Numbered from the stretch's first letter, positions 4,437 through 61,826 are shown. The stretch is DNA of 64,000 bases from an uncultured bacterium (GCA_966243015.1 CBIMES010000001.1:50598-114597), one strand, 5' to 3'. Notes: generated from the letters alone by a model not told the origin. Made by a program: numbers and translations.

Positions 4437-4490
4437 CACATTTTGATGTGCTTTTTATTTTGTCCGGCCAAAGGCCTTGTTTGGGCTTCC

Positions 4491-5066: not shown

Positions 5067-5127
5067 GGATTCTTTGGGCTTCTGTCTTACGGTGGTTAAT
5101 TTTATGGAAGCATTGTAGCATGAGGCC

Positions 5128-5892: not shown

Positions 5893-5909
5893 CCGGGATC
5901 TTCATGGGC

Positions 5910-21359: not shown

Positions 21360-21902
21360 ATGAGCCATACAAAAAGAAACAAGAAATCGACCGTTTCCGC
21401 AGTCATCGTCGCCCTCGTGGTCCTGGCCGCCCTCGCCGCGTATCTTTTCGTCGGGCAGGGGACTGCCTCCAGGGAGGCATCGGGAACCGAGGCGAGAAAG
21501 GAGTCTAAAGCGTTTGAGTACCGCAAGACGGGCCTCTCGTTCTCGCACGACTCTGAACATACGGTTCGGGTCGTGTCTGATCAAGGGATCGATACGATTG
21601 TGGTCCAGTCGGAGTCTGACACGTCCAAGGGCCTTCAGATTTCCGTCCTGCCGTACGAGGACGATCCGTCGACTCTCACGTTCCAGAAGATCATGTCCGA
21701 CATACCCGACATGAAGGTCGAGAGGCCTCAGGTCGGCACTCTGCCGTTCGGCTCACAAGCCCTCTCGTTCGAGACGGGCGACGGAGCTTTGCGCACAAGG
21801 GAAGTGTGGTTCGCTCGTGCGGGCTACGTGTATCAGATGAGCGCGCCGATTGGCTCGTCCGGGCTGATTGAGTCGACCATAGCGTCCATGTCATTTGAGT
21901 AA
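21360..21902 (+). CDS. hypothetical membrane-anchored/secreted protein
   Basis: N-terminal signal anchor (VSAVIVALVVLAALAAYLF); lies between the giant gene and the LamG gene. Confidence 0.55.
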   Translation: MSHTKRNKKSTVSAVIVALVVLAALAAYLFVGQGTASREASGTEARKESKAFEYRKTGLSFSHDSEHTVRVVSDQGIDTIVVQSESDTSKGLQISVLPYEDDPSTLTFQKIMSDIPDMKVERPQVGTLPFGSQALSFETGDGALRTREVWFARAGYVYQMSAPIGSSGLIESTIASMSFE

Positions 21903-32120: not shown

Positions 32121-32122
32121 TA

Positions 32123-33370: not shown

Positions 33371-33382
33371 CCCTCACACACC

Positions 33383-34078
33383 ATGCATCCAAACACACAC
33401 AAGCTCATAGACGTCAGGAACCTGAAGAAGACCTTCACCGACGGCGAGAAGCAGACGCATGTGCTCAAGGGCATCGAATTTTCCGTGAACGAGCACGAGT
33501 TCATCGCCATCGTTGGAAGGTCAGGAGCGGGAAAGTCGACGCTCCTCTACCAGCTCTCCCTCCTCGACGAGCCGACTTCGGGCGAGATTTATATCTTCGG
33601 CAAGGACACCCACAACATGAAGCCGGAGCAGAAGACCGTCTTTCGCCTCAACGAGCTTGGCTATGTCTTCCAGGACTACGCGCTTCTGCCCGACCTTACC
33701 GCGGTCGAGAACGTGGCGCTGCCGCTTATGATGCAGGGCAAGGACAAGGCGCATGCATATGCGGAGGCGAAGGCCGCCCTCGAGCGCGTGAAGCTCGGCC
33801 ATCGCCTCGGCAACCTGCCGAGCCAGCTTTCCGGAGGAGAGCAGCAGCGCGTGTCAGTCGCCCGCGCTCTGGCTCACAAGCCAAAGATCCTCTTTGCCGA
33901 TGAGCCGACGGCAAATCTCGACAATGAGTCGTCCCGAACGGTTATGGCGCTTTTCCAGGAGATCTACGCCCAGGGCCAAACCATCATCATGGTTACTCAC
34001 GAGGAGGAGTACGCGAGGATGGCGAAGCGCGTCGTCAGACTCGACGACGGCAGGATAATCAGCGACGAGAGAGATTAG
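33383..34078 (+). CDS. ABC transporter ATP-binding protein (DevA/LolD/MacB-NBD type)
   Basis: GRSGAGKSTLL (Walker A), LSGGEQQRVSVARAL (signature), ILFADEPT (Walker B), H-loop. Confidence 0.9.
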   Translation: MHPNTHKLIDVRNLKKTFTDGEKQTHVLKGIEFSVNEHEFIAIVGRSGAGKSTLLYQLSLLDEPTSGEIYIFGKDTHNMKPEQKTVFRLNELGYVFQDYALLPDLTAVENVALPLMMQGKDKAHAYAEAKAALERVKLGHRLGNLPSQLSGGEQQRVSVARALAHKPKILFADEPTANLDNESSRTVMALFQEIYAQGQTIIMVTHEEEYARMAKRVVRLDDGRIISDERD

Positions 34079-34090
34079 GTTTTGCGGTGG

Positions 34091-34125
34091 AAAGCCGGGG
34101 CCTTGCGGCCCCGGCTTTCATTTGC
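34091..34125 (+). terminator. rho-independent terminator AAAGCCGGGGCC-TTGC-GGCCCCGGCTTT plus T-run
   Basis: Follows the ABC ATPase stop. Confidence 0.7.
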
Positions 34126-34139
34126 TGTATAATCAATCT

Positions 34140-34991
34140 ATGAGGACTTTCGCACATGTAATCGGTGCGCTGATCTTTCTCTCGCCGCTCTGCGCGGGCG
34201 CGGCTGATATTTCGCTTGTGCCCGTTTCGCCGATTCAGGGCGACCCTCTCATGGTTTCCGTCGGCGGTCTCATCGGGTCCACGACCGTGCGCTCGATTGC
34301 CTTCGGCAGCAGGGCCTTGCCCGTGTTTTCATATCAAGGCAGGTCGACGGCGCTTTACGGCATCGACATTCGGGACAAGGTTGGCACGTCTACGGTGACC
34401 GTAATACTCTCTGACGGCTCAGTTTTAAGCAGGCCTGTGTATGTGGGCGAGAGGAGGCGCATCGAAGAGCCGTTTAGAATTCCGGAGAAGCTCGGCGGCA
34501 ACACACAGGCCGCGGCCACGACCCTCGTGAGCACCCTGGCCCGGGAGAACGCGAGCCTGCTTGGCCTTCGCACGGGAACTCATGCCTTCTGGACTCAGCC
34601 GTTTGGGTACCCTGTCGCGAGCCCTGTCGTGACCGACGCCTATGGGTATTCGCGCAACACCGTCGGTACGGTTCTGACGCACAAGGGAACTGATTTCAGG
34701 GCTCCCGAGGGCACGCCGGTGCTCGCCATGAACCGCGGCGTGGTGCGTCTGACGCAGGAGGGCAGGAACTACGGCAAGACCATCATTGTCGATCACGGCC
34801 TCGGCCTCCAGACCTTCTATATGCATCTCTCTAAAATAAACGTGAACGTGGGGGAGTTGGTGTTGCCTGGCCAGGTTATCGGGCTCTCGGGCAAGACGGG
34901 ATACGCCGAGGCGGCGCACCTTCATACGACCGTGCGTATTAATGAGGTGTCGATTGACCCAAAGAGATTTCTCGAGCTGTTCGGAAGATAG
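34140..34991 (+). CDS. M23 family (LytM-like) peptidoglycan endopeptidase
   Basis: HKGTDFRAPEGTPV, IIVDHGLGLQTFYMHL and AHLHTTV (HxxxD / HxH metal site). Start is set at 34140 because TGTATAAT lies 6 nt upstream; the track starts at 34122. Confidence 0.8.
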   Translation: MRTFAHVIGALIFLSPLCAGAADISLVPVSPIQGDPLMVSVGGLIGSTTVRSIAFGSRALPVFSYQGRSTALYGIDIRDKVGTSTVTVILSDGSVLSRPVYVGERRRIEEPFRIPEKLGGNTQAAATTLVSTLARENASLLGLRTGTHAFWTQPFGYPVASPVVTDAYGYSRNTVGTVLTHKGTDFRAPEGTPVLAMNRGVVRLTQEGRNYGKTIIVDHGLGLQTFYMHLSKINVNVGELVLPGQVIGLSGKTGYAEAAHLHTTVRINEVSIDPKRFLELFGR

Positions 34992-51251: not shown

Positions 51252-52292
51252 ATGACTACACCACAAAAACCGCCCCCGAATCCCCACAAATTGGACGATT
51301 CGGAAGAAGGGTCTGACGGCAGGAAGAAAGGTGTCTGGATTTGGCTTGTGAGCATAGCGCTGGTCCTTACCATCGGCGCGATGCTCCTGACCAAGGCGCA
51401 CATGCTGCCCTGGTCTTCCGAATCCGCGACGCCTGCCACGGCTGACCACAAGTCTGAGTCCGAGCGACTCAAGAAGGAAAATGAGGAGCTCGTCGGCAAG
51501 CTTTCGCTCGCCGAGGGTAAACTCAAGAATTCCGAGGGTCAGCTCAAGATAAAGCAGGCAGCCCTGGACACCGCAAACCTCACCCTTACCGCAAACGCGG
51601 TAGAGGCCGAGAGGATAAACGGCGAGCGGCTGTCGATGATCAAAGATATGGGTAAGACGGGTAGGGAACGAGACGACCTCAAGGTCGAGCGGGACACGTT
51701 GAAGAAGCAGAACGAGCTTCTCATCGCCGACCTCGAGACCGTCGATGGAAAGAGGAAGGCACTTGAAGCCGAGAATGAGGCCCTTAAACAGATCGCGGCC
51801 TCTCTTCAGGTGACTCCCTTAGCCCCGACCGAGGCGACTGCTTCCTCTGTCTCCCTGCAACCTGAACCGATGCCGCAGGTGCCGCCAACACCGGTGCCGG
51901 CAATCGAGGTCGAGCAGGGTCCTGTAAAGCCGTCAGCCGTGCCGGTCGTTTCAGCGTCTCCCTCGGGCGCCTCGCACAAGAAGACGCGAAGCGGCTCGTG
52001 GAAGCAGCTGAAATTCCACGTCGGCATATCTACGGACTCATATTCGGTTTCCGAGTATGTGTCCGAAGAAAGGCTTCGTGTTGTCCCGGTTCGTGGTCTC
52101 GTGCTCGAGACCAAGCCCGAGGGCGTGCTGGGTAGGCTGGCGTCCCCCGACTATACCCAGATCAAGGAAGACGTCTCGCAGATATCTGTCCCAAGCGGCG
52201 TTCGCTCGATCAGACTTTGTATCGACCCGACTCTCGCCCAGAAGGGAAGCCAGCTGATCGTCGAGGTGTTCGTGCCGGACGGAAAAAAGTAG
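51252..52292 (+). CDS. membrane-anchored coiled-coil protein (hypothetical)
   Basis: TM (VWIWLVSIALVLTIGAMLL), long coiled coil (ERLKKENEELVGKLSLAEGKLKN..), Pro-rich linker, beta-rich C-terminal domain. A terminator lies at 52309..52342. Confidence 0.6.
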   Translation: MTTPQKPPPNPHKLDDSEEGSDGRKKGVWIWLVSIALVLTIGAMLLTKAHMLPWSSESATPATADHKSESERLKKENEELVGKLSLAEGKLKNSEGQLKIKQAALDTANLTLTANAVEAERINGERLSMIKDMGKTGRERDDLKVERDTLKKQNELLIADLETVDGKRKALEAENEALKQIAASLQVTPLAPTEATASSVSLQPEPMPQVPPTPVPAIEVEQGPVKPSAVPVVSASPSGASHKKTRSGSWKQLKFHVGISTDSYSVSEYVSEERLRVVPVRGLVLETKPEGVLGRLASPDYTQIKEDVSQISVPSGVRSIRLCIDPTLAQKGSQLIVEVFVPDGKK

Positions 52293-52373
52293 GCAAGTTG
52301 TCTTATCGGCCCCGAGCGCAAAGCGCTCGGGGCTTTTTCTTGCCGTGGCAGGGTTTGCTATACTATGTACATC

Positions 52374-52832
52374 ATGAAAAACGTACGTGTCCTTGCGGGA
52401 AAGGTTATTGGATCGCTCTTCGCACTCGCCCTTGTCTTGTCGGCTGTCGCGCCAACGGTCGCTTCGGCCCAGTTCACTCTTTTTCAGGGTGGTTCGGGAG
52501 GTTCTGGCGGATCGGTATCAAGTGGCTTCGCTGGAGGCGCGTGCGCCAATCTGAGGACGGGTGGCTTCGTCGGAGTGGTTGACTGCGTCATCATCTTTTT
52601 CAACTACTTCATCTACATCATCACCGCGCTCACCGTTGTTTACGTGGTCGTCGGTGCCTTCAGGCTCACGAACGAGGAGAAGAGGGAGGACGGCAAGCAG
52701 ATGATCTATCACGGCATCATTGGCCTCTTTATCATGTCGTCCATTTGGGGCCTTGTTAACATACTCGACAGTACCTTCAATTTGTCCGGCAGCTCGCCGA
52801 TGATTCCTCCGACCATAGAAAGGACTTTCTAG
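52374..52832 (+). CDS. VirB2/TrbC-like pilin candidate P1 (signal peptide plus two TM helices)
   Basis: Signal peptide ending ASAQ, Gly/Ser-rich segment with a Cys pair, helix-1 (VIIFFNYFIYIITALTVVYVVVGAF), charged loop NEEKREDGKQ, helix-2 (IYHGIIGLFIMSSIWGLVNIL). TATACT lies 9 nt upstream of the ATG at 52374. Confidence 0.6.
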   Translation: MKNVRVLAGKVIGSLFALALVLSAVAPTVASAQFTLFQGGSGGSGGSVSSGFAGGACANLRTGGFVGVVDCVIIFFNYFIYIITALTVVYVVVGAFRLTNEEKREDGKQMIYHGIIGLFIMSSIWGLVNILDSTFNLSGSSPMIPPTIERTF

Positions 52833-53116
52833 CCTCATTTTCCGGTCAATGCCCTCCCTGAGAGGGTATTGACTTTTTGTATTTTTATGATAAAAGGATA
52901 ACAAACAGTATCACAAGGAGGCGCGCGATTGCGTCTCACTGTTGTTCTTCGAAACCAACACCGTTTGTAACTATGAGCTCAACACCCAGTGGTGATGGTC
53001 AAAAGGATCCTGTCCTCGAGACCCACCTCACCAATAACTTCGTCAGAATCTTCTTTTTCCTCGTCCCTCGCCCCAAGTTTATGAAGGGCGAGAAGTGGAA
53101 AAATTTGTCCGGAGTC

Positions 53117-53902
53117 ATGAAGGCTAAATCCCTGGGCATATCCCTCAACAGGATTGCTGCTGCGATAGCCCTTCTTCTCCTTTGTGGAGCCTTCGCGTTT
53201 GTGTTTTACCTGGCTTGTCCCGTTCTCATCAAATGGGCTCGGGCCGCCGAGCAGTCCATTCACATTCCCGGTTCATCCGAGAGCGATGGTGTTCCCGTCG
53301 GCTCTGTGTCTCTCAAGGAATACGAGGAGGCGCTTCGTGCGAAGGAGGTTGCCGAGCAGTCGCTGATGGCCGCCATCCTTCGGGGCGACGGTCTCAAGGA
53401 CGAGGCCAACGTGCTTGCTGATCACAATGCCAAATTGCTCGATTCGGTCACCAGGCTTCAGGCCGACGCAAAGACGCCTCACTATGTCATTGTCCGTCCT
53501 GAGCAGCAGAAGCAGGAGCAGCCGCCCGCATCCATCGTGATTCAGGAACCGCTCCTGCCGCTCGCGCCGCCGGAGCCGATTCGCATCCCGTCAGGGCTTA
53601 TTCCCGTGACGGTATACGGGTCGTCCAACGAGTATGAGTATGGCTCGGGCGTTCGGTCGAGGCCGTTCTGCGTCAGCGAGGAGATAAAGCAGGGTAAGGT
53701 CCTCGTGTCGCGCAGGAAAGGTCTCATGATGGAGATTGAGACAGGTATCAGTCTTCGGAAGAATGATGTGCCGACGGTGGTGGCGGTTCCCGTCGAGTCA
53801 GATGTCATCGTGGTCCCTCGCGGAGCCAAGAAGGTTCGCTTCTACTACGAGGACACAGATTCGTCTGATCCGGCGCCGCTCAAGGTGAGGGTCATGGAGT
53901 AG
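53117..53902 (+). CDS. membrane-anchored hypothetical protein (signal anchor, coiled coil, Pro-rich linker, C-terminal beta domain)
   Basis: Start chosen at MKAKSLGISLN with GGAG 3 nt upstream; the track ORF starts at 52877. The C-terminal motif PRGAKKVRFYYED..LKVRVME resembles the C-terminus of the 57914..58465 protein. Confidence 0.5.
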   Translation: MKAKSLGISLNRIAAAIALLLLCGAFAFVFYLACPVLIKWARAAEQSIHIPGSSESDGVPVGSVSLKEYEEALRAKEVAEQSLMAAILRGDGLKDEANVLADHNAKLLDSVTRLQADAKTPHYVIVRPEQQKQEQPPASIVIQEPLLPLAPPEPIRIPSGLIPVTVYGSSNEYEYGSGVRSRPFCVSEEIKQGKVLVSRRKGLMMEIETGISLRKNDVPTVVAVPVESDVIVVPRGAKKVRFYYEDTDSSDPAPLKVRVME

Positions 53903-53983
53903 TGTCCCGTTGACTACAGGGCGCCGAGAAATTCTCGGCGCTTTTTTTATGGAAATAACTGAATATAGCTGCCTCAGGTATTT

Positions 53984-54532
53984 TTGATATACTTATACGC
54001 ATCTATGTTCAGCGACCCACGTCACAACCTTGAGCAACTCGGCATGTCGGACGGTGCGATCGTCGCCGACCTCGGATCAGGTTCGGGGTTCTATTCGATG
54101 GAGGCCGCGCGCATCGTCGCTCCTCTCGGCAAGGTGTATGCGGTCGACGTGCAGAAGGACATGCTGGAGAAACTCAAGCGCGAGGCTCAGAAAGTCCATA
54201 TTCGCAACATCGACATAGTCCACGGCGATCTCGAGCGCTTGGGCGGTACCAAGATTCGTGATGGCATCGTAGACGTGGTCATCGTGTCGAACGTGCTTTT
54301 CATGCTCGAGGACAAGAAGACTTTCCTTCAAGAGGTGCGTCGCATTCTCAAGGCCAAGGGCCGCATCCTCCTTATCGACTGGTCCGCGTCCTTCTCGCTC
54401 ATGGGCCCCCATCCCGAACACGTCGTCTACAAGGACAATGCCCTTATCATGCTCAAGGAGGCAGGTTTTTCCTTCGAGCGTGAGATCAGCGCTGGCGCGC
54501 ATCACTATGGTATAATTGCGCGAAAGCAATAA
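53984..54532 (+). CDS. class I SAM-dependent methyltransferase
   Basis: VADLGSGSGFY (motif I), YAVDVQ (motif II), VVIVSNVLFML (motif III). Confidence 0.8.
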   Translation: MIYLYASMFSDPRHNLEQLGMSDGAIVADLGSGSGFYSMEAARIVAPLGKVYAVDVQKDMLEKLKREAQKVHIRNIDIVHGDLERLGGTKIRDGIVDVVIVSNVLFMLEDKKTFLQEVRRILKAKGRILLIDWSASFSLMGPHPEHVVYKDNALIMLKEAGFSFEREISAGAHHYGIIARKQ

Positions 54533-54533
54533 C

Positions 54534-55826
54534 ATGACCCGATTCCAACTTATCTTTACGGGATTCCTCATCGCGGCTGCGGTTGTCGGTGCGATACTTT
54601 TCTCCATTCAGAGAAGCAAGGGTTCTACGGCTGCCATCCAGGTGACCATGTGGGGGACTATCGATGCAGAGACATTCGGCGACTTTCTTGGTAAGGCGTC
54701 CCTCACGAACCGCGATACGGTCAACATCGATTATGTCGCCAAGGATCGAACGACCTTCGAGACCGATCTTATCGCTGCCCTTGCTCGCGGTCAGGGTCCC
54801 GATATGATCCTCCTGCCTCAGGACCTTCTCGTGAAGCAACGTGACAAGTTCTACGTCGTGCCGTTCGAGAACTATTCTGAGCGCCTTTTCAGAGATTCGT
54901 TTGTCGAGGAGGGCGAGCTCTTCCTGACCCCCGAGGGTGTTATCGGCCTGCCATTCGCGGTCGATCCGATTGTTATGTACTGGAACAGGAACATTTTCTC
55001 GAACGCGAGCATCCCGCTTCCTCCGACTTCGTGGACCGAGCTCTACACCCTTGCGCCGAAGATCATACAGAAGGACGCCTCGGGCAACATAACTCAGGCG
55101 CTCGTCGCGTTCGGTTCTATGAACAATGTAAGCCATGCCAAAGATTTGGTCTCGCTTCTCTCGCTTCAGGCCGGTACTTCGATCGTCGCGCGTGACACTC
55201 AGCTTAATTATCTTCGAAGCACGTTCTCTGACCAGGGCAGCGGCCTTATCCCGGCAGAGCAGGCCGTTAATTTCTTCACGGAGTTCTCTGACCCTGTAAA
55301 GGCGTCGTACTCGTGGAACAGGTCTCTCGCCACGGACAGGAACATGTTCCTGTCCGGGAAACTCGCCTTGTACTTTGGCTATGCGAGCGAAATCGCTGGC
55401 ATCAGGCTCGCGAACCCCAACCTCAACTTCGACGTCGCGGCCGTCCCTCAGATTCCCGGAAAGAGGCTGACCTTCGGCAGCATGCAGGCGATAACCCTTC
55501 TCAAGTCGTCGAAGAATCTCGGCGCGGCCTATGTCGCCGCTCAGGTTCTTACGGGCAAGGCCCTTCAGGCCGAATGGGTCGCCTCGAGCGGTCTCCCGCC
55601 CGTGCGTCGCGACCTTCTCGCCACCACGCCTGGCAACGCCTACACCGCAGTCTTTTACGAGAGCGCCCTCATGTCCCGCGCATGGCTCGATCCTAACAGC
55701 GAGGCGACGAAAGCGACCTTCACCAAGCTCGTCGAGAGCGTGACCTCGGGCAGGGTCCGGGCGAGCGAGGCGGTACGAACCGCGAGCACGGAGATAGACG
55801 TGCTCCTTCAGCAGGCAAACATATGA
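54534..55826 (+). CDS. ABC-transporter substrate-binding protein (extracellular solute-binding family 1-like), orphan
   Basis: N-terminal signal anchor plus bilobed SBP pattern. No cognate permease or ATPase genes are adjacent. Confidence 0.6.
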   Translation: MTRFQLIFTGFLIAAAVVGAILFSIQRSKGSTAAIQVTMWGTIDAETFGDFLGKASLTNRDTVNIDYVAKDRTTFETDLIAALARGQGPDMILLPQDLLVKQRDKFYVVPFENYSERLFRDSFVEEGELFLTPEGVIGLPFAVDPIVMYWNRNIFSNASIPLPPTSWTELYTLAPKIIQKDASGNITQALVAFGSMNNVSHAKDLVSLLSLQAGTSIVARDTQLNYLRSTFSDQGSGLIPAEQAVNFFTEFSDPVKASYSWNRSLATDRNMFLSGKLALYFGYASEIAGIRLANPNLNFDVAAVPQIPGKRLTFGSMQAITLLKSSKNLGAAYVAAQVLTGKALQAEWVASSGLPPVRRDLLATTPGNAYTAVFYESALMSRAWLDPNSEATKATFTKLVESVTSGRVRASEAVRTASTEIDVLLQQANI

Positions 55827-56293
55827 AACGAATAATCATTTTACTCTCGATCTTCGCGCTTTTCGCCCTCTCGGCGCAATCCGCCCTTGCGCAGGGCAAT
55901 ACGGGATCGGGCTCCGGCGACCCAAAGAATGACAATTTCCAGATTGTGCCATGCACGGGCGTCACCAAGACTCAGCCTGACGGCACGGTGACGGGCAGCG
56001 AGTGTGACTTCAATGCGCTCATCGAGATGACGAACAGGGTCATCAAGTTCCTGCTTTACATGTCGATACCGTTCGTTCTCGCCATGACTATCTACACGGC
56101 TTTCCAGTTCCTGACCTCGAACGGCAATCCTGTCAAACTCGAGAAGGCCAAGCACATGCTTTGGTACGTCGGCGTTGGTCTGCTCTGGATCCTGGTCTCG
56201 TTCATCCTCGTCTACACGGTCCTCGACAATCTGCTGTCGCCAAACATCAAGAACGATTCGCAGGGAATCTGGAGGAGCTATTTCAACCCATAA
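55823..56293 (+). CDS. VirB2/TrbC-like pilin candidate P2
   Basis: Signal peptide ..SALAQG, Cys pair (PCTG..SECD), then two hydrophobic helices separated by SNGNPVKLEKAKH. Confidence 0.55.
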   Translation: MKRIIILLSIFALFALSAQSALAQGNTGSGSGDPKNDNFQIVPCTGVTKTQPDGTVTGSECDFNALIEMTNRVIKFLLYMSIPFVLAMTIYTAFQFLTSNGNPVKLEKAKHMLWYVGVGLLWILVSFILVYTVLDNLLSPNIKNDSQGIWRSYFNP

Positions 56294-56297
56294 TCAC

Positions 56298-56750
56298 ATG
56301 AAGCATCACATCATCGCCTTCGCAGTCATCTTCGCGGTCTCGGCACCCGCCCTCGTCGCGGCACAAACCGAGTATCGCTACGCAGAGGTGTCGACCACCA
56401 CGGGATTCGGCGGTACGAACAGGGGAGCTGCGTCGGTCGCCACGTCTTCGAGGAACAATATCACCGCCACCGCCAAGCTCGAGAATCCGCTCAAGGGAGT
56501 GAACAGCCTCGGCGACTTCGTCTACCTCGTCATCAATTTCGTATACAGCCTCAGCTATGCCGTCATAGCATTCTTTCTCATCCTCTCGGGCTTCAAGTTT
56601 GTCATGGCGCAGGGAAAGCCTGACGCTCTCGACAACGCCAAGGAGACCTTCAAGAACACCATTATCGGTGCGGTCATTCTCATCGGCGCGAACGTTATCA
56701 CGGAGGTCGTGAGAACAGTCATTAATCAGTTTGTAAGAACATCAATATAA
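56298..56750 (+). CDS. VirB2/TrbC-like pilin candidate P3
   Basis: Start at MKHHIIAFAVIFAVSAPALVAAQ; two helices separated by AQGKPDALDNAKE. Confidence 0.55.
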   Translation: MKHHIIAFAVIFAVSAPALVAAQTEYRYAEVSTTTGFGGTNRGAASVATSSRNNITATAKLENPLKGVNSLGDFVYLVINFVYSLSYAVIAFFLILSGFKFVMAQGKPDALDNAKETFKNTIIGAVILIGANVITEVVRTVINQFVRTSI

Positions 56751-56760
56751 AAACACAGCC

Positions 56761-57147
56761 ATGAAAAAGATACTTGTAGCAGGCTTCCTTGCCCTCACCG
56801 TGCTTACGGCGCCGGTCTTGGCCTCGGCTCAGGCAAAGGGTTCGATATCGTCGTGCGGTCAGCTTCAGACCGAGGGTGCGGCGGGTTTGGTGAAGTGCAT
56901 CATCGCCTTCTTTGATTACTTCGTCTACATTGTCACCGCCCTTGCCGTGGTCTACATCGTCCTCGGCGCGTTCAAGCTCCTGAACGAGGAGAAGAGGGAC
57001 GAGGGTAAGCAGACCATTTACTACGGCATTATCGGCCTCTTCGTCATGATGTCGATCTGGGGCTTCGTCAACATCCTTAACAACACCTTCAAGCTCGGCA
57101 CTTCGGCCGATCAGGTAAACAGGCCGACCCTCATCCCATCGCGATAG
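56761..57147 (+). CDS. VirB2/TrbC-like pilin candidate P4 (closest paralog of P1)
   Basis: CIIAFFDYFVYIVTALAVVYIVLGAFKLLNEEKRDEGKQTIYYGIIGLFVMMSIWGFVNIL is about 75% identical to the P1 core. Confidence 0.6.
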   Translation: MKKILVAGFLALTVLTAPVLASAQAKGSISSCGQLQTEGAAGLVKCIIAFFDYFVYIVTALAVVYIVLGAFKLLNEEKRDEGKQTIYYGIIGLFVMMSIWGFVNILNNTFKLGTSADQVNRPTLIPSR

Positions 57148-57221
57148 GTTATCCCCACGCTTTGTCGAAGCTTGGCTTTCCTTGGTATAATTGAGGGGCA
57201 TTATAAAATTTAGAACAACTC

Positions 57222-57584
57222 ATGAAAAAAATCGGATTCATCGCTGCATTGCTCGTCCTTCCATTCACGGCAGGCGCGCAGGGAGCAATCAATAACGTCT
57301 GGGACATCTTCAACTTCATCAACAGGATTCTCAACACGCTTCTCCCGCTCATCATCGCTGCTGCCGTCGTGTACTTCATCTACGGCATCGCGACCTACGT
57401 CATGTCGGGTAGCGACGACGCAAAGGCTGCCGCAAAGGATCGCATCATCTACGGCATCATCGGCCTCTTCGTAATGGTATCCGTATGGGGTCTCGTGAAC
57501 ATCCTCGTGAACACCTTCGGCATTAGCAACCAGACCGCTCCGGGAAACATCAACAATCAGCTCCCGAACGTCCCTACTAACTAG
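57222..57584 (+). CDS. VirB2/TrbC-like pilin candidate P5
   Basis: Signal peptide ..TAGAQG; helices separated by SGSDDAKAAAKDR; second helix IIYGIIGLFVMVSVWGLVNIL. Confidence 0.55.
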   Translation: MKKIGFIAALLVLPFTAGAQGAINNVWDIFNFINRILNTLLPLIIAAAVVYFIYGIATYVMSGSDDAKAAAKDRIIYGIIGLFVMVSVWGLVNILVNTFGISNQTAPGNINNQLPNVPTN

Positions 57585-57589
57585 TCCCC

Positions 57590-57838
57590 ATGAACGCTCT
57601 GGGTGTACCTCTTGTCCAGAAGTTCTTCGCTGTGGTGGTGAATCCGGCGATACGACTTCTCTTCGCGGCTGCCGTTGTGTACTTCGTCTACGGAGTCTTC
57701 AACTACGTCAGGCACTCAAGCGACGGCGACGCAAGGGCAGAGGGTGCCAATCACATCCTTTGGAGCACGATCGGCCTCTTCATCATGGTTTCCGTCTGGG
57801 GTATCATCGGCGTCCTCAGGAGCACGGTGGGTCAGTAG
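57590..57838 (+). CDS. VirB2/TrbC-like pilin candidate P6 (no obvious cleavable signal peptide)
   Basis: AAVVYFVYGVFNYV, then the loop SSDGDARAEGANH, then ILWSTIGLFIMVSVWGIIGVL. Same family as P5. Confidence 0.5.
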   Translation: MNALGVPLVQKFFAVVVNPAIRLLFAAAVVYFVYGVFNYVRHSSDGDARAEGANHILWSTIGLFIMVSVWGIIGVLRSTVGQ

Positions 57839-57913
57839 GAAGGACAGGAGACAGGAAAAAGAAAAAGGCCCGCGCACATGTGCGCGGGCCTTTGATTTGC
57901 CCCGAACCGTTCC

Positions 57914-58465
57914 TTACTCCGGCACCTTGATGTTGAAGGCCTTGCTCGAGAAGAACCTGACCTTGGTGGCACCGTCGGGAATCTTGAACGCGCCGCGAGC
58001 GGGCAGCTCGTGGGGTTTTCCGTCTGCCATCATCCAGATGCCGGGTTTGGCCTCGATGCCGATCTTCCTGCTGAGGAGGTCGGCGACGGAGTATTCCGGC
58101 GACAGGACGTTGGGCTCGATGGTTATCTCGGCCTCGACGCCAGTCGGTCGGTCGCCTTCGGCATAGCCGAAGCGATAGGTGATGCCGGACTCGGAGGTTA
58201 TGGACTCGAGCGGGACGCTCTCGACCTTGGTTTTCGTCTTGCGACGTTCCGAGGTTGAGGAGCCTGACGAGAATCCGGTTTGGCCGGTCTCGGCGCGCTC
58301 CTCGGTTTCTTCCTTGTCGGCTTTCGCCTTTCTTCCTTCGGTGCTCTTGCAGCCGGAGAAGCTGTTGCTGACGATGGCGATGGTGCAGATGAGGGCACAC
58401 AGGGCGATGAACTTTACGAGTTTACCGCTCAGTGTGACGCTGTCCTTTGCGGGTGTGTCTGACAT
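57914..58465 (-). CDS. putative lipoprotein / membrane-anchored secreted protein
   Basis: N-terminal hydrophobic segment ending ..SNSFSGC (lipobox-like). Its own promoter (TTGACA..TATCAT) and SD (AAAGGAG) are present. Confidence 0.5.
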   Translation of the reverse strand: MSDTPAKDSVTLSGKLVKFIALCALICTIAIVSNSFSGCKSTEGRKAKADKEETEERAETGQTGFSSGSSTSERRKTKTKVESVPLESITSESGITYRFGYAEGDRPTGVEAEITIEPNVLSPEYSVADLLSRKIGIEAKPGIWMMADGKPHELPARGAFKIPDGATKVRFFSSKAFNIKVPE

Positions 58466-58579
58466 TATCGTGTCTCCTTTGGAGGGTTGATGGTTGGGAA
58501 TATGTGAAGATCTGTATGCCGTATCTGCGGCAAACTTTATATTATGATATATCGTTTTATGTAAATTGTCAAGTAATGA

Positions 58580-58612
58580 AAAAGGGCCGTCACTTGCGTG
58601 ACGGCCCTCGCT
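58580..58612 (-). terminator. terminator GGGCCGTCAC-TTGC-GTGACGGCCC plus TTTTTCATT downstream of 58621..59355
   Basis: Seen directly in the sequence. Confidence 0.65.
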
Positions 58613-58620
58613 GCTAAGTC

Positions 58621-59355
58621 CTAGGACTTAGGCTTGGTCGTTATGGTCATCTCCGTGTCACCGTCTGGCTTGAACCAGAAGTGAGTTGGATTCGCCGAGA
58701 ATATTCGATCCGTATCGATATACGTTCCAGGCGCTGCTCTGTGCACTTTTCGCTCGTCATTCACCCTGAGGGAGAAATCGACGGGCGGATTGAGCGTGAC
58801 ATCAATTCGCTTGTCTTTCGGCACGGGGATCTTCTTCCAGCCTCCCGCTTTGACCCAGATCACCCGCTCTGTGGGGTGATCCGATATCTCGGCGAGCGCT
58901 TGGTCGAAGGCCTCCTCGATTGAGGGCGAATCTTCAGACTTCCACACGACGTATACCCAGCTGCCCACAGCAGTCACCAGGACGATGATGCCGAACAGCT
59001 TCGCTATCTTCTTGGGCGCAGCCATGACCGCGTATATGCTGAACACGATCGCGATCTGGGTTATCCAGAATATGCTGCCCCTATACCAGAACGTCCACCA
59101 CCACTCGTATTCTGTCCTGGCACAGAGCCAGTTGAAGAATCCGAGCGATATGCTGATGAGGGCGAGGGACTTTGCGATTTCCTTACCGTGCTTCTCCCAG
59201 AGTTCCTCAATCCAGCTTTTGGGTTGGTCTGTTGTCTTGGGCTTGCCCTTGGCGTCCTCCTTCATCTTTTCGTAGACGATGAGTGCGACAAAGATGAGGC
59301 CTATGATACCAACCGCACCAAGCGCTAACATTAACTTCAGTTCCAGCGGTGTCAC
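58621..59355 (-). CDS. hypothetical integral membrane protein (about 4 TM) with C-terminal soluble domain
   Basis: Hydrophobic helices; immediately downstream of the SPFH gene on the same strand. Possible NfeD-like partner; this is inference. Confidence 0.5.
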   Translation of the reverse strand: MTPLELKLMLALGAVGIIGLIFVALIVYEKMKEDAKGKPKTTDQPKSWIEELWEKHGKEIAKSLALISISLGFFNWLCARTEYEWWWTFWYRGSIFWITQIAIVFSIYAVMAAPKKIAKLFGIIVLVTAVGSWVYVVWKSEDSPSIEEAFDQALAEISDHPTERVIWVKAGGWKKIPVPKDKRIDVTLNPPVDFSLRVNDERKVHRAAPGTYIDTDRIFSANPTHFWFKPDGDTEMTITTKPKS

Positions 59356-59373
59356 TGTTCTAACTCCTTTCTT

Positions 59374-60552
59374 TTAGTTGTTACCAGGTTTTTCGCCTGC
59401 TGTTCCCGGACTTATTCCAAATGCTGGCATGGCTGGTGTGCCGATGACAACCGTATGGATTGATTTCGAATTACCGAGCGACTGCAGGCCCGCATGCGGG
59501 TTTTCCTTTGTGGCGTCCGCCATTTGCTTTGCGGCCTGCGCCTCAGCATTACCTTTAACCTTGATCGCCTCGGCCTCCTTCTGTGCTTCATAGAGCTTCG
59601 CGTCCGCGAGGATGCGCATCTCTTTCGACTTGGCCTCTGCGGCTGTTTCGACCTTCTCCTTGTCTCGATCCGCGTAATACTTGGTGAGGGACGCCTTTTG
59701 GGTGTCGCTCATCTTGTCTGTCGGATCGATGGAGAAGCCGAGGAAGTTAACCGAAACGATTTCCTGTCCGAGGGTGCTCTTGATACCGGGATTGCCCCTG
59801 TCAGAGTCGTTGAGAAGGGCGATGCCCTTCTGCAGGCGACTTCTTACATGGACTTTGGGCGTATTTTCTCCACCTTCGTCCTTTTTTGGCTCATCCGTTC
59901 CGACCTCTGCCTCCATCTGGATTATCTCGTTCAACTTACTGGTTCCGAAGATATCTCGGATTTCGGCGGTTACTGAGCCGTTCGCGTTAGCGAGCCAACC
60001 TGGTGATTTGTTGCCGAAGAGGCTTTTGTTTGCGTCCACTGTCCTGGTTGTGATGACGAAGTCGGCTGTGATGGGTATGCCTTCCTCGGTTTCAGCGCCG
60101 CGGACGGTTATGCCGAACGATGCCTGCCAGAATATTGAGTCGGCCCTATCGTTTTTTCCGTGTATCGTGTAGTCGGTCGCTCCATCGGTGCCTTTGGAGT
60201 ATTTTGTCCTCGGGAACATGTATTTGTATCGCGAGGCGAAAGGCCAGAGGCCTATCCAATATATTCCATAGATGTTTCCGGGGAGGCTTATGCTCGTTGG
60301 AGCATTACCCTCGGTAACAATCCCTGTCTTTGGGTGAACCCAGTAACCAGTTATGTTGCCTATGAAGCGCGCTACTCTGTCGCCGTGCATGATCACCACA
60401 ATCTCTCCCTGGGGAACCATGGTGAACATGATGTCCTTGTGGGCAAAATAATAGATGGCCATGCCGATTGCTGTCAGGGCGGTAAGCCCGATGAGGACCA
60501 GGATCAGGATGATGTTCAGCCTGTCTTGGTCCAGTATTTCGATATCTGTCAT
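59374..60552 (-). CDS. SPFH/band-7 (stomatin/flotillin-like) domain protein
   Basis: N-terminal TM; SPFH blocks (VPQGEIVVIMHGDRVARFIG.., TVRGAETEEGIPITADFVITTRTVD); C-terminal Ala/Glu/Lys-rich coiled coil (ILADAKLYEAQKEAEAIKVKGNAEAQAAKQ). GGAGGA SD upstream. Confidence 0.6.
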   Translation of the reverse strand: MTDIEILDQDRLNIILILVLIGLTALTAIGMAIYYFAHKDIMFTMVPQGEIVVIMHGDRVARFIGNITGYWVHPKTGIVTEGNAPTSISLPGNIYGIYWIGLWPFASRYKYMFPRTKYSKGTDGATDYTIHGKNDRADSIFWQASFGITVRGAETEEGIPITADFVITTRTVDANKSLFGNKSPGWLANANGSVTAEIRDIFGTSKLNEIIQMEAEVGTDEPKKDEGGENTPKVHVRSRLQKGIALLNDSDRGNPGIKSTLGQEIVSVNFLGFSIDPTDKMSDTQKASLTKYYADRDKEKVETAAEAKSKEMRILADAKLYEAQKEAEAIKVKGNAEAQAAKQMADATKENPHAGLQSLGNSKSIHTVVIGTPAMPAFGISPGTAGEKPGNN

Positions 60553-61230: not shown

Positions 61231-61279
61231 GATTACTATAGTATCAGAATTTATTGATTATGTCAATAAATCTGTCTGG

Positions 61280-61360
61280 TGCGCGAGAGAGGACTTGAAC
61301 CTCCATGCCTTGCGGCGCCTGCTCCTAAGGCAGGTGTGTCTGCCATTTCACCACTCGCGC
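61280..61360 (-). tRNA. tRNA-Leu (anticodon TAG), type II
   Basis: Manual fold: acceptor GCGCGAG/CTCGCGC, anticodon stem-loop CCTGC-CTTAGGA-GCAGG, long variable arm, T arm GGAGG-TTCAAGT-CCTCT, discriminator A. Confidence 0.85.
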
Positions 61361-61419
61361 AGATGCGTTCAGTATAACAAAAGAGAGAATTTCGAATGTG
61401 CCGAATCTGACCTTCATCA

Positions 61420-61445
61420 CTTCCTGTATGGGTACATACAGGAAG
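61420..61445. repeat. hairpin CTTCCTGTATG-GGTA-CATACAGGAAG (11-bp perfect stem) between tRNA genes
   Basis: Seen directly in the sequence. Confidence 0.6.
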
Positions 61446-61456
61446 TGTTTCGCTCG

Positions 61457-61500
61457 GAAACGGCCCCGGAAGAAAGCTAGCTTTCTTCCGGGGCCGTTTC
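61457..61500. repeat. perfect 44-bp palindrome GAAACGGCCCCGGAAGAAAGC-TA-GCTTTCTTCCGGGGCCGTTTC between tRNA-Lys and tRNA-Leu(TAG)
   Basis: 21-bp arms around a central TA, with no loop; likely a processing or terminator structure. Confidence 0.65.
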
Positions 61501-61511
61501 GCTCACTCGAG

Positions 61512-61584
61512 TCCTTCCTGTAGGGATCGAACCTACGACCTTATCCTTAAGAGGGATCTGCTCTACCAACTGAGCTAAGGAAGG
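61512..61584 (-). tRNA. tRNA-Lys (anticodon CTT)
   Basis: Manual fold: acceptor CCTTCCT/AGGAAGG, D arm GCTC-AGTTGGTA-GAGC, anticodon loop CTCTTAA, T arm GTAGG-TTCGATC-CCTAC. Confidence 0.8.
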
Positions 61585-61652
61585 GTGTTTCAGTATCTTA
61601 CAACAGCTTTGATTTTTTTTCCAGTCCTGGGCCTTCCCGAGGGCTCTGGCGG

Positions 61653-61739
61653 TGCCCAGGGTCGGATTCGAACCGACATGCTCTGTTACGAGCGGGAGAT
61701 TTTAAGTCTCCTGCGTCTGACCAGTTTCGCCACCCGGGC
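61653..61739 (-). tRNA. tRNA-Leu (anticodon TAA), type II
   Basis: Manual fold: acceptor GCCCGGG/CCTGGGC, anticodon stem-loop GGAGA-CTTAAAA-TCTCC, long variable arm, T arm GTCGG-TTCGAAT-CCGAC. Confidence 0.85.
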
Positions 61740-61754
61740 GGCGTTTCTACCGAG

Positions 61755-61826
61755 AGGCCACGGCGAGAATCGAACTCGCGCATAGAGATTTTGCAGATCT
61801 CCGAATTACCACTTTTCTACGTGGCC
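61755..61826 (-). tRNA. tRNA-Cys (anticodon GCA)
   Basis: Manual fold: acceptor GGCCACG/CGTGGCC, anticodon stem-loop GAGAT-CTGCAAA-ATCTC, T arm GCGAG-TTCGATT-CTCGC, discriminator U as expected for Cys. Confidence 0.85.

What the first reader, a model, noticed from the sequence alone, without database searches (positions are those of the whole stretch)
52374..57838. Six paralogous VirB2/TrbC-like two-TM secreted small proteins (pilin candidates), five in tandem
P1 lies at 52374..52832. The tandem array 55823..57838 encodes P2-P6.
Each is 82-156 aa and shares the layout: cleavable signal peptide (AxA/AQG), a short segment often with a Cys pair, hydrophobic helix 1, a short charged loop (NEEKREDGKQ / SGSDDAKAAAKDR / SSDGDARAEGANH / AQGKPDALDNAKE), then hydrophobic helix 2 with a conserved IIYGIIGLFVMVSVWGLVNIL-type sequence.
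This is the topology and size of T4SS VirB2/TrbC pilin precursors. P1 and P4 are about 75% identical across the core although 4 kb apart, so duplication was recent.
No VirB4/VirB6/VirD4-like genes lie in the window. Neighbours are a methyltransferase, an orphan SBP, membrane-anchored coiled-coil proteins and, downstream on the opposite strand, an SPFH-protein operon.
A multi-paralog pilin-like array suggests subunit diversification for a pilus or filament, or a family of small membrane-active peptides.
Basis: inference. Interest (0 to 1): 0.75.

Follow-up and report, generated by a model that had tools for sequence, protein, structure and literature searches.

The report
Conserved VirB2-like pilin gene array
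The six small membrane proteins are real and belong to the known 'T4SS pilin' family of ultra-small Patescibacteria; the array is an old, fixed-order operon shared by a whole bacterial class and always sits behind a sugar-binding-protein gene, not a recent duplication.

Summary
Five pass Pfam's own threshold for PF18895 (T4SS_pilin). The sixth, P2, is a divergent homologue (hhalign probability 99.5%). The window comes from a Paceibacteria/Parcubacteria genome. Tandem VirB2-like pilin genes are already described in Patescibacteria and are essential in one cultured species, so the kind is known.

1. MTase–SBP–P2–P3–P4–P5–P6 is one terminator-bounded operon next to gyrA. It recurs in essentially all 80 species-level relatives fetched. 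The classes keep a fixed order (T2–T3–T45×n–T6), and MTase–SBP precedes all 69 arrays where the SBP gene is visible.
2. P1/P4 is an old duplication, not a recent one. The core is 65% identical in protein and 71% in DNA, and orthologues of each copy exist in other species.
3. P6 has no signal peptide, and this holds across its class.

No VirB4, VirB6 or VirD4 lies in the window or within ±10 kb in relatives. Three relatives that carry the array are listed in the literature as VirB4-positive.

I think these are pilin or channel subunits for a T4SS encoded elsewhere. Whether a pilus forms, and what the SBP does, is unproven.

The parts
52374..52832 (+). P1, an extra T45-class pilin-like gene (152 aa; 155 aa from the ATG at 52365). 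It has a signal peptide, a Cys pair (C57/C71) and two TM helices. It appears monocistronic.
   Evidence: ORF. PF18895 29.6 bits. Hydropathy. Terminator-like hairpins at 52308-52334 and 52844-52874 flank it. Orthologues sit at the same position in L007 and L010.
53918..53944 (+). Terminator-like hairpin that closes the upstream gene and marks the 5' boundary of the MTase-SBP-pilin operon.
   Evidence: 12-bp stem, 7 GC pairs, T-tract.
54005..54532 (+). Class I SAM-dependent methyltransferase (175 aa, no TM segment). It is the first gene of the operon.
   Evidence: Methyltransf_31/11/25 at E 1e-16 to 1e-19. Below every NCBIfam equivalog cut-off. Immediately precedes the SBP gene wherever the upstream DNA is visible in the loci. 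Its stop lies 1 nt before the SBP start.
54534..55826 (+). Membrane-anchored carbohydrate-type solute-binding protein (430 aa, N-terminal TM segment 3-28, no lipobox). Its stop overlaps the P2 start (ATGA).
   Evidence: SBP_bac_8 69 bits and SBP_bac_1 51 bits. Closest solved structures are the 4r9f chain deposited as 'MBP1' and maltodextrin and acarbose/maltose SBPs. Followed by pilin-class genes in 69 of 69 loci that show the SBP gene. No permease or importer ATPase is adjacent.
55823..56293 (+). P2, class T2 (156 aa). A divergent family member with a Cys pair (C44 nearly invariant, C61 invariant) before TM1.
   Evidence: PF18895 only 14.7 bits, but the T2 profile against the other classes gives hhalign probability 99.5%, E 2.9e-23. 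At least 2 Cys in 57 of 58 T2 orthologues. Conserved columns.
56298..56750 (+). P3, class T3 (150 aa), with the conserved 'LENPLKGV...SGFKFVMAQG' motif. This is the class whose relatives also hit TrbC/VirB2.
   Evidence: PF18895 35.4 bits. Alignment with P0065, P0089, P0113 and P0115; P0065, P0089 and P0115 carry precomputed PF04956 hits.
56761..57147 (+). P4, class T45 (128 aa), with Cys pair C32/C46. It is the paralogue of P1.
   Evidence: PF18895 42.8 bits. BLASTP against P1 E 3e-44.
57162..57191 (+). Promoter-like site (TTGTCG, 18 nt, TG-TATAAT) in the 74-nt P4-P5 spacer. It may be an internal promoter for P5-P6.
   Evidence: 10 of 12 matches with an extended -10. This is a consensus match only and is not shown to function.
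57222..57584 (+). P5, class T45 (120 aa), the most canonical family member.
   Evidence: PF18895 46.7 bits. NF045849 'Mbov_0395 family pilin-like conjugal transfer protein' E 8.3e-8, 31.8 bits, below the cut-off of 40. AF2 helical hairpin.
57590..57838 (+). P6, class T6 (82 aa). It consists of the mature-domain hairpin only and has no signal peptide. It is the last gene of the operon.
   Evidence: PF18895 35.7 bits. Two hydrophobic segments. 71 of 74 T6 orthologues likewise have two, with median length 88 aa.
57864..57893 (.). GC-rich palindrome flanked by an A-run and a T-run. It looks like a bidirectional terminator that ends the pilin operon and the convergent minus-strand operon.

Best explanation
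The six genes encode VirB2-like 'T4SS pilin' family proteins (Pfam PF18895) of a Paceibacteria (Parcubacteria, Patescibacteria) bacterium.

Operon structure. Five of the genes form the 3' part of a seven-gene operon, MTase-SBP-P2-P3-P4-P5-P6, which lies next to gyrA. The operon is ancient and vertically inherited across the class. It holds four non-redundant subunit classes in fixed order. T2, T3 and T6 are single-copy. T45 varies in copy number, and the window has three copies: P4, P5 and the detached P1.

Proposed mechanism.
- P1-P5 are made as Sec precursors.
- Signal peptidase I cuts after the A-x-A motif, which would leave an N-terminal Gln.
- The mature about 75-130-residue proteins sit in the cytoplasmic membrane as helical hairpins. 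Both ends face out and the short charged loop faces in.
- P6 inserts without a leader.
- The Cys pairs of P1, P2 and P4 are probably oxidised outside the cell.
- A chromosomal MPF-FATA-like T4SS encoded elsewhere (VirB4-TrsD-VirB3-VirB6, near dnaA in this class according to the literature) then extracts the hairpins and assembles them into a heteromeric surface filament or conduit used in host-cell contact. T45 would be the bulk subunit, and T2, T3 and T6 would be specialised subunits.
- The membrane-anchored, sugar-type SBP is a dedicated partner. It may recognise glycans or act as an assembly or tip factor.
- The role of the MTase is unknown.

Shown here: family membership, topology, operon structure, conserved order and the link to the SBP. 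Inferred: processing, dependence on the T4SS, filament formation, and the roles of the classes, the SBP and the MTase.
For: Family membership:
- PF18895 is above the gathering score for 5 of 6 proteins.
- The P2 class is homologous to the rest at hhalign 99.5%.
- 119 of 126 relatives hit PF18895, and 39 of 126 hit TrbC/VirB2 PF04956 (best E 4.5e-7).
- There is a sub-threshold match to the Mycoplasma ICE pilin-like family NF045849.
- Sources name homologues 'pilin'.

Topology: hydropathy and the AF2 hairpin.

Operon:
- Gene spacings are 1, -4, 4, 10, 74 and 5 nt.
- Strong terminator-like hairpins occur only at 53918-53944 and 57864-57893.

Conservation:
- 523 tblastn-confirmed relatives were found in GTDB species genomes.
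- In the 80 loci fetched, the same GyrA-...-MTase-SBP-T2-T3-T45-T45-T6 layout recurs with GyrA identity from 89% down to 61%.
- 35 of 69 loci have exactly the window's order. The rest differ mostly in T45 copy number (1-6) or in an undetected T2.
- Four further contexts reached through protein hits are the same locus.

Link to a T4SS:
- Published Table S3 shows a PF18895 gene two CDS from VirB4-TrsD-VirB3 in two Paceibacteria genomes.
- Three genomes that carry this array in my data (C7867-001 = L041, Nomurabacteria RIFCSPLOWO2_01_FULL_42_17 = L058, Yonathbacteria CG_4_8_14_3_um_filter_46_25 = L047) are listed there as Paceibacteria with VirB4 present.
- VirB4 is present in 2,417 of 3,035 Patescibacteria assemblies.
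- The predicted pilins of Southlakia epibionticum are essential and lie inside its T4SS cluster.
Against: - No VirB4, VirB6, VirB8, VirD4 or relaxase gene lies in the 64-kb window, in 7.5 kb beyond its left edge, or within ±10 kb of the array in any of 80 relatives.
- VirB4 could not be sought in the window's own genome.
- None of the six proteins reaches the TrbC/VirB2 Pfam threshold.
- A profile of the family finds no solved pilin by sequence.
- No pilus has been seen in any Patescibacterium according to the papers read, which speak of a 'potential to elaborate conjugative pili'.
- Monoderm T4SSs normally lack VirB2 pilins.
- The invariable coupling to an SBP has no precedent in T4SS biology that I know of and could point to another function.
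Confidence: 0.6

Rival explanations
1. The proteins are membrane-resident T4SS subunits, not a pilus. They belong to the VirB2-like family and work with the T4SS, but they stay in the cytoplasmic membrane or cell-wall zone as a heteromeric channel or stalk lining of a monoderm-type translocon. They do not polymerise into an extracellular filament.
For: - The Patescibacteria T4SS is nested in MPF-FATA, the monoderm class that has no pili.
- Four single-purpose classes in fixed stoichiometric order look more like a defined complex than like a homopolymer.
- P6 lacks a leader.
- No pilus has been observed; the review speaks only of a 'potential'.
Against: - The family's only sequence affinities are with pilin families (PF18895, PF04956, NF045849).
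- The variable copy number of T45 (1-6) fits a bulk polymerising subunit.
- Nothing here distinguishes a filament from a channel.
Confidence: 0.22
2. The operon is an SBP-centred membrane module that does not depend on the T4SS. The five hairpin proteins (ten TM helices in all) and the anchored sugar-binding SBP would form a solute- or glycan-capture, uptake or sensing complex. The resemblance to VirB2 would reflect only shared ancestry or shared topology.
For: - MTase-SBP precedes the array in 69 of 69 loci where the SBP gene is visible, and SBP and P2 overlap by 4 nt.
- No ABC permease or importer ATPase is adjacent.
- The array is never within 10 kb of VirB4.
- The T4SS cluster of Paceibacteria has its own single PF18895 gene next to VirB4, so the array may be surplus to T4SS needs.
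Against: - No known transporter is built from VirB2-like hairpins.
- Pfam, NCBIfam and PHROGs show no transporter-family similarity above noise for the six proteins.
- Homologous arrays in other Patescibacteria classes sit beside VirB4 and are essential together with the T4SS.
Confidence: 0.12
3. The proteins are small membrane-active peptides, such as holins, bacteriocins or immunity proteins, or they are unrelated small hydrophobic ORFs.
For: Small size, two TM helices and tandem paralogues are also typical of holin and bacteriocin-immunity clusters.
Against: - None of the six has a PHROGs hit at E<=0.01, and no holin, bacteriocin or immunity family appears in Pfam even at E<=1.
- The locus is a core chromosomal operon next to gyrA, vertically conserved across a class. 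It is not a mobile or accessory island.
- No phage, lysin or bacteriocin-processing genes are nearby.
Confidence: 0.03

Closest known systems
VirB2-like pilin arrays of Patescibacteria (Quinonero-Coronel et al. 2025, PMC12102498; the essential predicted pilins in the T4SS cluster SEML1_0006-0019 of Southlakia epibionticum, Wang et al. 2023, PMC10633639)
   Same: - Same Pfam family (PF18895).
- Same phylum.
- Several sequence-divergent paralogues in tandem. Identities of the other five to P5 here are 20-45%; the published arrays average 25% with a maximum of 54%.
- Chromosomal, with no relaxase nearby.
   Different: - The published arrays were recorded near virB4 (Fig. S9 ring 5; Table S3) and are reported as most abundant in Microgenomatia and Saccharimonadia.
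- This array lies next to gyrA, more than 10 kb from any VirB4, in an operon with a methyltransferase and an SBP.
- It has a fixed class order that is conserved across Paceibacteria.
- In the part of Table S3 that I could read, Paceibacteria genomes list only a single VirB4-adjacent PF18895 gene.
TrbC/VirB2 pilins of Gram-negative T4SSs (PF04956; T-pilus VirB2, RP4 TrbC, F TraA)
   Same: - Small precursor with a cleaved leader.
- Two hydrophobic helices joined by a short charged loop.
- A third of relatives (39 of 126) hit PF04956 at E<=0.01, with a best E of 4.5e-7.
- From my own recollection, not checked here: the A-x-A then Gln junction resembles the VirB2 processing site.
   Different: - The six window proteins score only 12-14 bits against a cut-off of 27.9.
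- Their leaders are of ordinary length (about 20-33 aa).
- They are not encoded with VirB3-VirB11.
- The host is a monoderm.
- There is no evidence of cyclisation or acetylation enzymes.
Mbov_0395 family pilin-like conjugal transfer protein of Mycoplasma ICEs (NCBIfam NF045849)
   Same: - P5 matches almost the whole 80-position model (positions 9-78) at E 8.3e-8, and P2 matches at E 3.4e-4.
- According to the family's name, its members come from ICEs of a wall-less monoderm, whose T4SS class (MPF-FATA) is the one the Patescibacteria VirB4 clade nests in.
   Different: - The scores are below the curated cut-off (31.8 against 40), so this is not a member.
- The ICE protein is a single gene on a mobile element, not a chromosomal multi-class array.
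Tandem VirB2 paralogues of Bartonella and Anaplasma phagocytophilum, as cited in PMC12102498
   Same: Several VirB2 paralogues encoded side by side.
   Different: Those arrays are interpreted as antigenic or host-range variation. Here the classes are orthologous across species and positionally fixed, which argues for distinct structural roles and not for variation. Only the T45 class varies in copy number.

Membership tests
Pfam PF18895 T4SS_pilin | Whole-protein HMM score at or above the curated gathering score (26.6 bits) | tested here: met
   P1 29.6, P3 35.4, P4 42.8, P5 46.7 and P6 35.7 bits. P2 scores 14.7 bits and fails directly, but its orthologue profile aligns to the profile of the other classes with hhalign probability 99.5%, E 2.9e-23.
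Pfam PF18895 T4SS_pilin | Two-helix hydrophobic hairpin covering most of the 71-position model | tested here: met
   Matches cover model positions 3-12 to 71. Two hydrophobic segments follow the leader. AF2 gives H26-61 and H65-99 with core pLDDT 84-91.
TrbC/VirB2 pilin (PF04956) | HMM score at or above the gathering score (27.9 bits) | tested here: not met
   P2 13.6, P4 13.1 and P5 12.3 bits; the others have no hit. Among 126 relatives, 39 match at E<=0.01, best 4.5e-7. The relationship is therefore remote homology, not membership.
TrbC/VirB2 pilin (PF04956) | Encoded within a T4SS gene cluster alongside VirB4 | tested here: not met
   No T4SS machinery gene lies in the window, in the 7.5 kb to its left, or within ±10 kb in 80 relatives.
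TrbC/VirB2 pilin (PF04956) | Processed by signal peptidase and assembled into an extracellular pilus by the T4SS | not testable with these tools
   Only heuristic A-x-A sites are available. There are no proteomic or imaging data.
Patescibacteria VirB2-like pilin array (PMC12102498) | Two or more PF18895/PF04956-type genes in tandem, or separated by one non-pilin gene, in a Patescibacteria genome | tested here: met
   Five consecutive genes lie at 55823-57838. Relatives are Paceibacterota, Taylor-, Nomura-, Yonath- and Wolfebacteria.
Patescibacteria VirB2-like pilin array (PMC12102498) | Located near virB4 (within ±20 CDS), as recorded in that survey | tested here: not met
   There are about 48 kb upstream and 6 kb downstream of the array in the window without VirB4. 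The result is the same within ±10 kb in relatives.
Patescibacteria VirB2-like pilin array (PMC12102498) | VirB4 present in the same genome | not testable with these tools
   The rest of the 493,814-bp source contig could not be read. Indirect support: three array-bearing relatives are listed as VirB4-positive, and 80% of Patescibacteria assemblies have VirB4.
NCBIfam NF045849 Mbov_0395 pilin-like conjugal transfer protein | Score at or above the curated cut-off (40 bits) | tested here: not met
   P5 31.8 bits (E 8.3e-8) and P2 20.2 bits.
Holins and phage membrane proteins | Similarity to a holin or phage family profile | tested here: not met
   No PHROGs family at E<=0.01 for any of the six. 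No holin family in Pfam at E<=1.
ABC importer operon (for the SBP) | SBP gene accompanied by permease and ATPase genes | tested here: not met
   The operon holds only the MTase, the SBP and the pilin-like genes. The only ABC system in the window is a HlyD-FtsX-ABC exporter at 30690-34078.

The most novel reading that the evidence does not exclude
In Paceibacteria the T4SS has two pilin loci. One is a single VirB4-adjacent gene. The other is this class-wide gyrA-linked operon, which builds a heteromeric filament or conduit from four fixed VirB2-like classes. The co-translated, membrane-anchored, sugar-type SBP would act as its tip, adhesin or cargo-capture module, and the methyltransferase might modify the subunits. 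This would be a host-glycan-binding or nutrient-scavenging organelle with no counterpart among described T4SSs. From my own knowledge, it would be functionally reminiscent of the archaeal 'bindosome', in which sugar-binding proteins are displayed by a pilus-like assembly system.
Probability: 0.15. Interest if true: 0.75.

Novelty: new variant of a known kind. Interest (0 to 1): 0.4.

Why it matters
Patescibacteria are a huge, mostly uncultured group of ultra-small bacteria that depend on hosts. Their T4SS and its predicted pilins are essential in the one species tested, yet nobody knows what the system transports or whether it makes a pilus.

This locus shows that in the largest class, Paceibacteria, most VirB2-like genes are not in the T4SS cluster. 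They sit in a separate, deeply conserved operon with four non-interchangeable subunit classes and an obligatory sugar-type binding protein.

That changes how the arrays should be read. They look like a defined multi-subunit structure, not antigenic variation. It also gives concrete targets (T2, T3, T6 and the SBP) for structural modelling, proteomics and genetics.

As a gene family the finding is ordinary. The operon architecture is the part worth noting.

Tried and rejected
- A sequence search of all PDB chains with a family profile found no pilin and only noise.
- The search for related loci with the 13-sequence alignment A2 failed because no conserved stretch was found. It was repeated with the tighter alignment A3.
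- I tried to find VirB4 in the same genome. The large source contig is never returned by the look-up of encoding contigs, walking is limited to window proteins, and no Paceibacteria VirB4 sequence could be obtained as a seed. This attempt was abandoned.
- I looked for a VirB4-adjacent pilin among the protein hits. All 120 listed hits classify as T2, T3, T45 or T6, and the four contexts inspected were all the same syntenic locus.
- The supplement of PMC12102498 was searched by WGS prefix without result. A search by organism name succeeded. Table S3 rows for those genomes lie beyond the stored cut.
- The holin/bacteriocin reading is rejected.
- 'Recent duplication' is rejected.
- Antisense ORFs 55841-56155 and 56722-57201 are rejected as shadows, with GC3 0.49.

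Full report
OBSERVATION. P1 is 52374-52832, with an alternative ATG at 52365. P2 is 55823-56293, P3 is 56298-56750, P4 is 56761-57147, P5 is 57222-57584 and P6 is 57590-57838. Public gene calls on contigs that carry identical proteins use the same boundaries. Their GC3 is 0.67-0.75, matching neighbouring real genes, while the antisense ORFs across the array have GC3 of about 0.49.

Hydropathy confirms the layout for P1-P5. Each has a signal-like N-terminal segment ending in A-x-A-Q or AQG, followed by two long hydrophobic helices around a short charged loop. AlphaFold2 of P5, run with a 126-sequence alignment, gives a helical hairpin (H26-61 and H65-99; mean pLDDT 75, core 84-91).

Three details need correcting. 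First, P6 has no signal peptide. Second, Cys pairs occur in P1, P2 and P4 only. Third, P1 and P4 are 53% identical over 124 columns (E 3e-44) and 65% over the 81-residue core, not about 75%.

FAMILY. Pfam PF18895 (T4SS_pilin) is hit above its curated cut-off of 26.6 bits by P1 (29.6), P3 (35.4), P4 (42.8), P5 (46.7) and P6 (35.7). P2 reaches only 14.7 bits. I aligned 46 orthologues of P2 and 130 orthologues of the other classes. The profile-profile comparison gives probability 99.5% and E 2.9e-23 over 110 columns, so P2 is a divergent member of the same superfamily.

Of 126 relatives scanned one by one, 119 hit PF18895. 39 also hit TrbC/VirB2 PF04956, with a best E of 4.5e-7. The six window proteins themselves stay at 12-14 bits for PF04956 against a cut-off of 27.9.

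NCBIfam adds a sub-threshold match of P5 (E 8.3e-8, 31.8 bits, cut-off 40) and of P2 (E 3.4e-4) to NF045849. That family is the 'Mbov_0395 family pilin-like conjugal transfer protein' of Mycoplasma ICEs. Sources name close homologues 'pilin [Candidatus Paceibacterota bacterium]' or 'Type IV secretion system pilin'.

ORGANISM AND WINDOW. Relatives are Paceibacterota/Parcubacteria-group MAGs, including Taylor-, Nomura-, Yonath- and Wolfebacteria. The window's proteins occur on a 493,814-bp NCBI contig.

The rest of the window is housekeeping. It holds UvrD/PDDEXK helicase-nuclease, DsbA-like and AhpC proteins, TruB, BipA, an FtsJ-like methyltransferase and LeuRS. It also holds TsaD, MscL, a HlyD-FtsX-ABC exporter, an M23 peptidase, FtsZ, Pth, GyrA, IF-2 and eight tRNAs. 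In addition there is a 2,878-aa protein and a triple-LamG protein.

No VirB4, VirB6, VirB8, VirD4 or relaxase gene is present. None lies in the 7.5 kb beyond the left edge either.

ANATOMY OF THE LOCUS. MTase (54005-54532), SBP (54534-55826) and P2-P6 are packed with spacings of 1, -4, 4, 10, 74 and 5 nt. The strong terminator-like hairpins (12-13-bp stems) lie at 53918-53944, before the MTase gene, and at 57864-57893, after P6. The second is a palindrome shared with the convergent minus-strand genes. Between them the scan lists only one weak hairpin, with a 6-bp stem (56554-56569, inside P3). The 74-nt P4-P5 spacer carries a promoter-like site with an extended -10 (57162-57191).

P1 stands alone between two terminator-like hairpins (52308-52334 and 52844-52874). 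It is flanked by two paralogous membrane-anchored coiled-coil proteins, at 51252-52292 and 52973-53902, which are 27% identical over 210 aa (E 2e-10).

The SBP has an N-terminal TM anchor and no lipobox. It hits SBP_bac_8 and SBP_bac_1. Its closest solved relatives are the 4r9f chain deposited as 'MBP1' and maltodextrin and acarbose/maltose SBPs. No permease or importer ATPase accompanies it.

COMPARATIVE EVIDENCE. This is the main new result. A scan of one genome per GTDB species with the T45 motif gave more than 598 pattern matches, of which 523 were confirmed by tblastn. I fetched the best 80 loci. Mapping the window's proteins onto them shows the same neighbourhood...S1 protein - metallo-beta-lactamase-fold protein - GyrA - (variable) - MTase - SBP - pilin genes ... 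IF-2. GyrA identity to the window falls from 89% to 61% across these loci.

I then classified the pilin ORFs with four class HMMs. Of the 69 loci that show the SBP gene, 35 have exactly the window's order, T2-T3-T45-T45-T6. Nearly all the others differ only in the number of T45 genes (1 to 6) or in an undetected T2. Every array with enough upstream DNA is preceded by MTase-SBP. Four further contexts, reached independently through protein hits, are the same locus. All 120 listed protein hits fall into these four classes.

Class properties are conserved. T6 lacks a leader in 71 of 74 orthologues, with a median length of 88 aa. T2 has at least two Cys in 57 of 58 orthologues; in the T2 alignment C61 is invariant and C44 nearly invariant. 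T3 carries the 'LENPLKGV...SGFKFVxAQG' motif and is the class whose members hit TrbC/VirB2.

The array is therefore an ancient, ordered set of non-redundant subunits with one expandable class. It is not the product of recent tandem duplication or diversification.

For P1 and P4 specifically, the core is 71% identical in DNA, and 26 of 53 conserved residues use different codons. In a neighbour-joining tree, window P1 groups with the P1-like genes that occupy the same post-gyrA position in L007 and L010, and P4 groups with their slot-4 genes. The duplication therefore predates those species.

RELATION TO T4SS MACHINERY. No ORF of at least 400 aa with a Walker A motif, other than ClpB, lies within ±10 kb of the array in any of the 80 loci. 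I could not read the rest of the window's own genome, so whether it has VirB4 is untested.

The literature fills part of this gap. VirB4 occurs in 2,417 of 3,035 Patescibacteria assemblies, and its clade nests within MPF-FATA. In Paceibacteria it lies near dnaA/dnaN. Table S3 of that survey shows, for two Paceibacteria genomes, a cluster of VirB6-VirB3-TrsD-VirB4 or VirB4-TrsD-VirB3 with one PF18895 gene two CDS from VirB4.

Three genomes that carry the gyrA-linked array in my data are listed there as Paceibacteria with VirB4 present. They are C7867-001 (L041), Nomurabacteria RIFCSPLOWO2_01_FULL_42_17 (L058) and Yonathbacteria CG_4_8_14_3_um_filter_46_25 (L047).

In Southlakia epibionticum the predicted pilins are essential and lie inside the T4SS cluster. 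[quoted passage not shown]

WHAT IS KNOWN AND WHAT IS NOT. Tandem arrays of divergent VirB2-like genes in Patescibacteria are published: 441 arrays of 2-11 genes, with mean identity 25%. That survey records arrays near virB4 (Fig. S9 ring 5). In the readable part of its Table S3, PF18895 hits appear only with 'VirB4 proximity = Yes'. The two Paceibacteria genomes in that part (RAAC4_OD1_1 and a Nomurabacteria genome) show a single pilin each.

The paper contains no occurrence of the words gyrA or substrate-binding, and its only mention of a methyltransferase is KsgA near virB4. A further literature search found nothing on a Paceibacteria pilin operon of this kind.

My conclusion is that the gene family and the idea of pilin arrays are known. 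The VirB4-distal, gyrA-linked MTase-SBP-T2-T3-T45n-T6 operon of Paceibacteria appears not to have been described in the papers I could search. I therefore rate it a new variant of a known kind, with moderate interest.

MECHANISM. My best explanation (confidence about 0.6) runs as follows.
- P1-P5 are Sec precursors, cut after A-x-A to leave an N-terminal Gln.
- They insert as hairpins with the loop facing the cytoplasm, and P6 inserts without a leader.
- A T4SS encoded elsewhere extracts the hairpins and assembles a heteromeric surface filament or conduit for host contact.
- T45 is the bulk subunit, and T2, T3 and T6 are specialised subunits.
- The anchored sugar-type SBP is a dedicated partner.

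Shown here are family membership, topology, operon structure, conservation of order and the SBP link. Everything about processing, assembly and roles is inference from established VirB2 biology and from the cited papers.

There are three rivals. The proteins may be a membrane-resident channel and not a pilus (0.22). They may form an SBP-centred module independent of the T4SS (0.12). They may be holin- or bacteriocin-like peptides (0.03).

The decisive tests are a whole-genome VirB4 scan, array-versus-VirB4 phyletic profiles, multimer modelling, and proteomics or cryo-ET.

Noticed in passing
window 51252-52292 and 52973-53902: The two membrane-anchored coiled-coil proteins that flank P1 are paralogues of each other (27% identity over 210 aa, E 2.4e-10). 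Neither has a significant Pfam family. The region between gyrA and the MTase gene varies among relatives: it holds 0-2 extra T45 pilin genes, other hypothetical proteins, and a Y1 transposase in L093.
   Followed up: partly
window 12711-21347 and 21895-24117: A 2,878-aa protein whose only Pfam hit is a Peptidase_S74 (endosialidase chaperone) domain near residue 2566. It is followed by a 740-aa protein with three Laminin_G_3 domains. These are probably giant surface or adhesin proteins.
   Followed up: no
window 52344-52376, 54510-54536, 57182-57224: No Shine-Dalgarno-like sequence precedes any of the pilin-operon starts. TATA-rich -10-like boxes lie directly before, or a few nt before, several ATGs (P1: ...gctatact ATG; SBP: ...ggtataat...). 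This suggests leaderless or SD-independent initiation.
   Followed up: no
window 2804-3610 (- strand): A membrane-anchored DsbA/Thioredoxin_4-like protein sits next to an AhpC/TSA peroxiredoxin (3667-4146). It could oxidise the extracytoplasmic Cys pairs of P1, P2 and P4.
   Followed up: no
window 57914-60552 (- strand): The convergent operon encodes three TM-anchored proteins of 183, 244 and 392 aa. The 'SPFH' label for the 392-aa protein rests only on weak hits (HflC E 0.002, FloT E 0.0046; Band_7 'faint' in L007). Conservation among relatives is patchy, at 20-37% identity.
   Followed up: partly
L062 (JAHFLU010000058.1) about 1200-6000; also L032, L039, L040, L060: T45-class copy number expands in some species, up to six consecutive T45 genes in L062. 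T2, T3 and T6 stay single-copy in most loci.
   Followed up: partly
loci L011, L017, L019, L028 and others: Many 'TPA_asm: uncultured Candidatus Saccharibacteria bacterium' MAG records have GyrA 79-86% identical to this Paceibacteria-type window and carry the same operon. The organism label of those records looks unreliable.
   Followed up: no
window 30690-34991: A HlyD-FtsX-ABC_tran (MacAB-like) exporter operon is followed by a Peptidase_M23 protein. It is the only ABC system in the window and is unrelated to the orphan SBP.
   Followed up: no
window 61277-61826 (- strand): A cluster of four tRNA genes (Leu-tag, Lys-ctt, Leu-taa, Cys-gca) lies between the response-regulator-like gene and rbfA/infB.
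   Followed up: no
PMC12102498 Table S3: Paceibacteria genomes in the published table show one PF18895 gene two CDS from VirB4. None of the 120 protein hits to the window's array classes came from such a context. The VirB4-adjacent pilin is therefore probably a fifth, more divergent class.
   Followed up: partly
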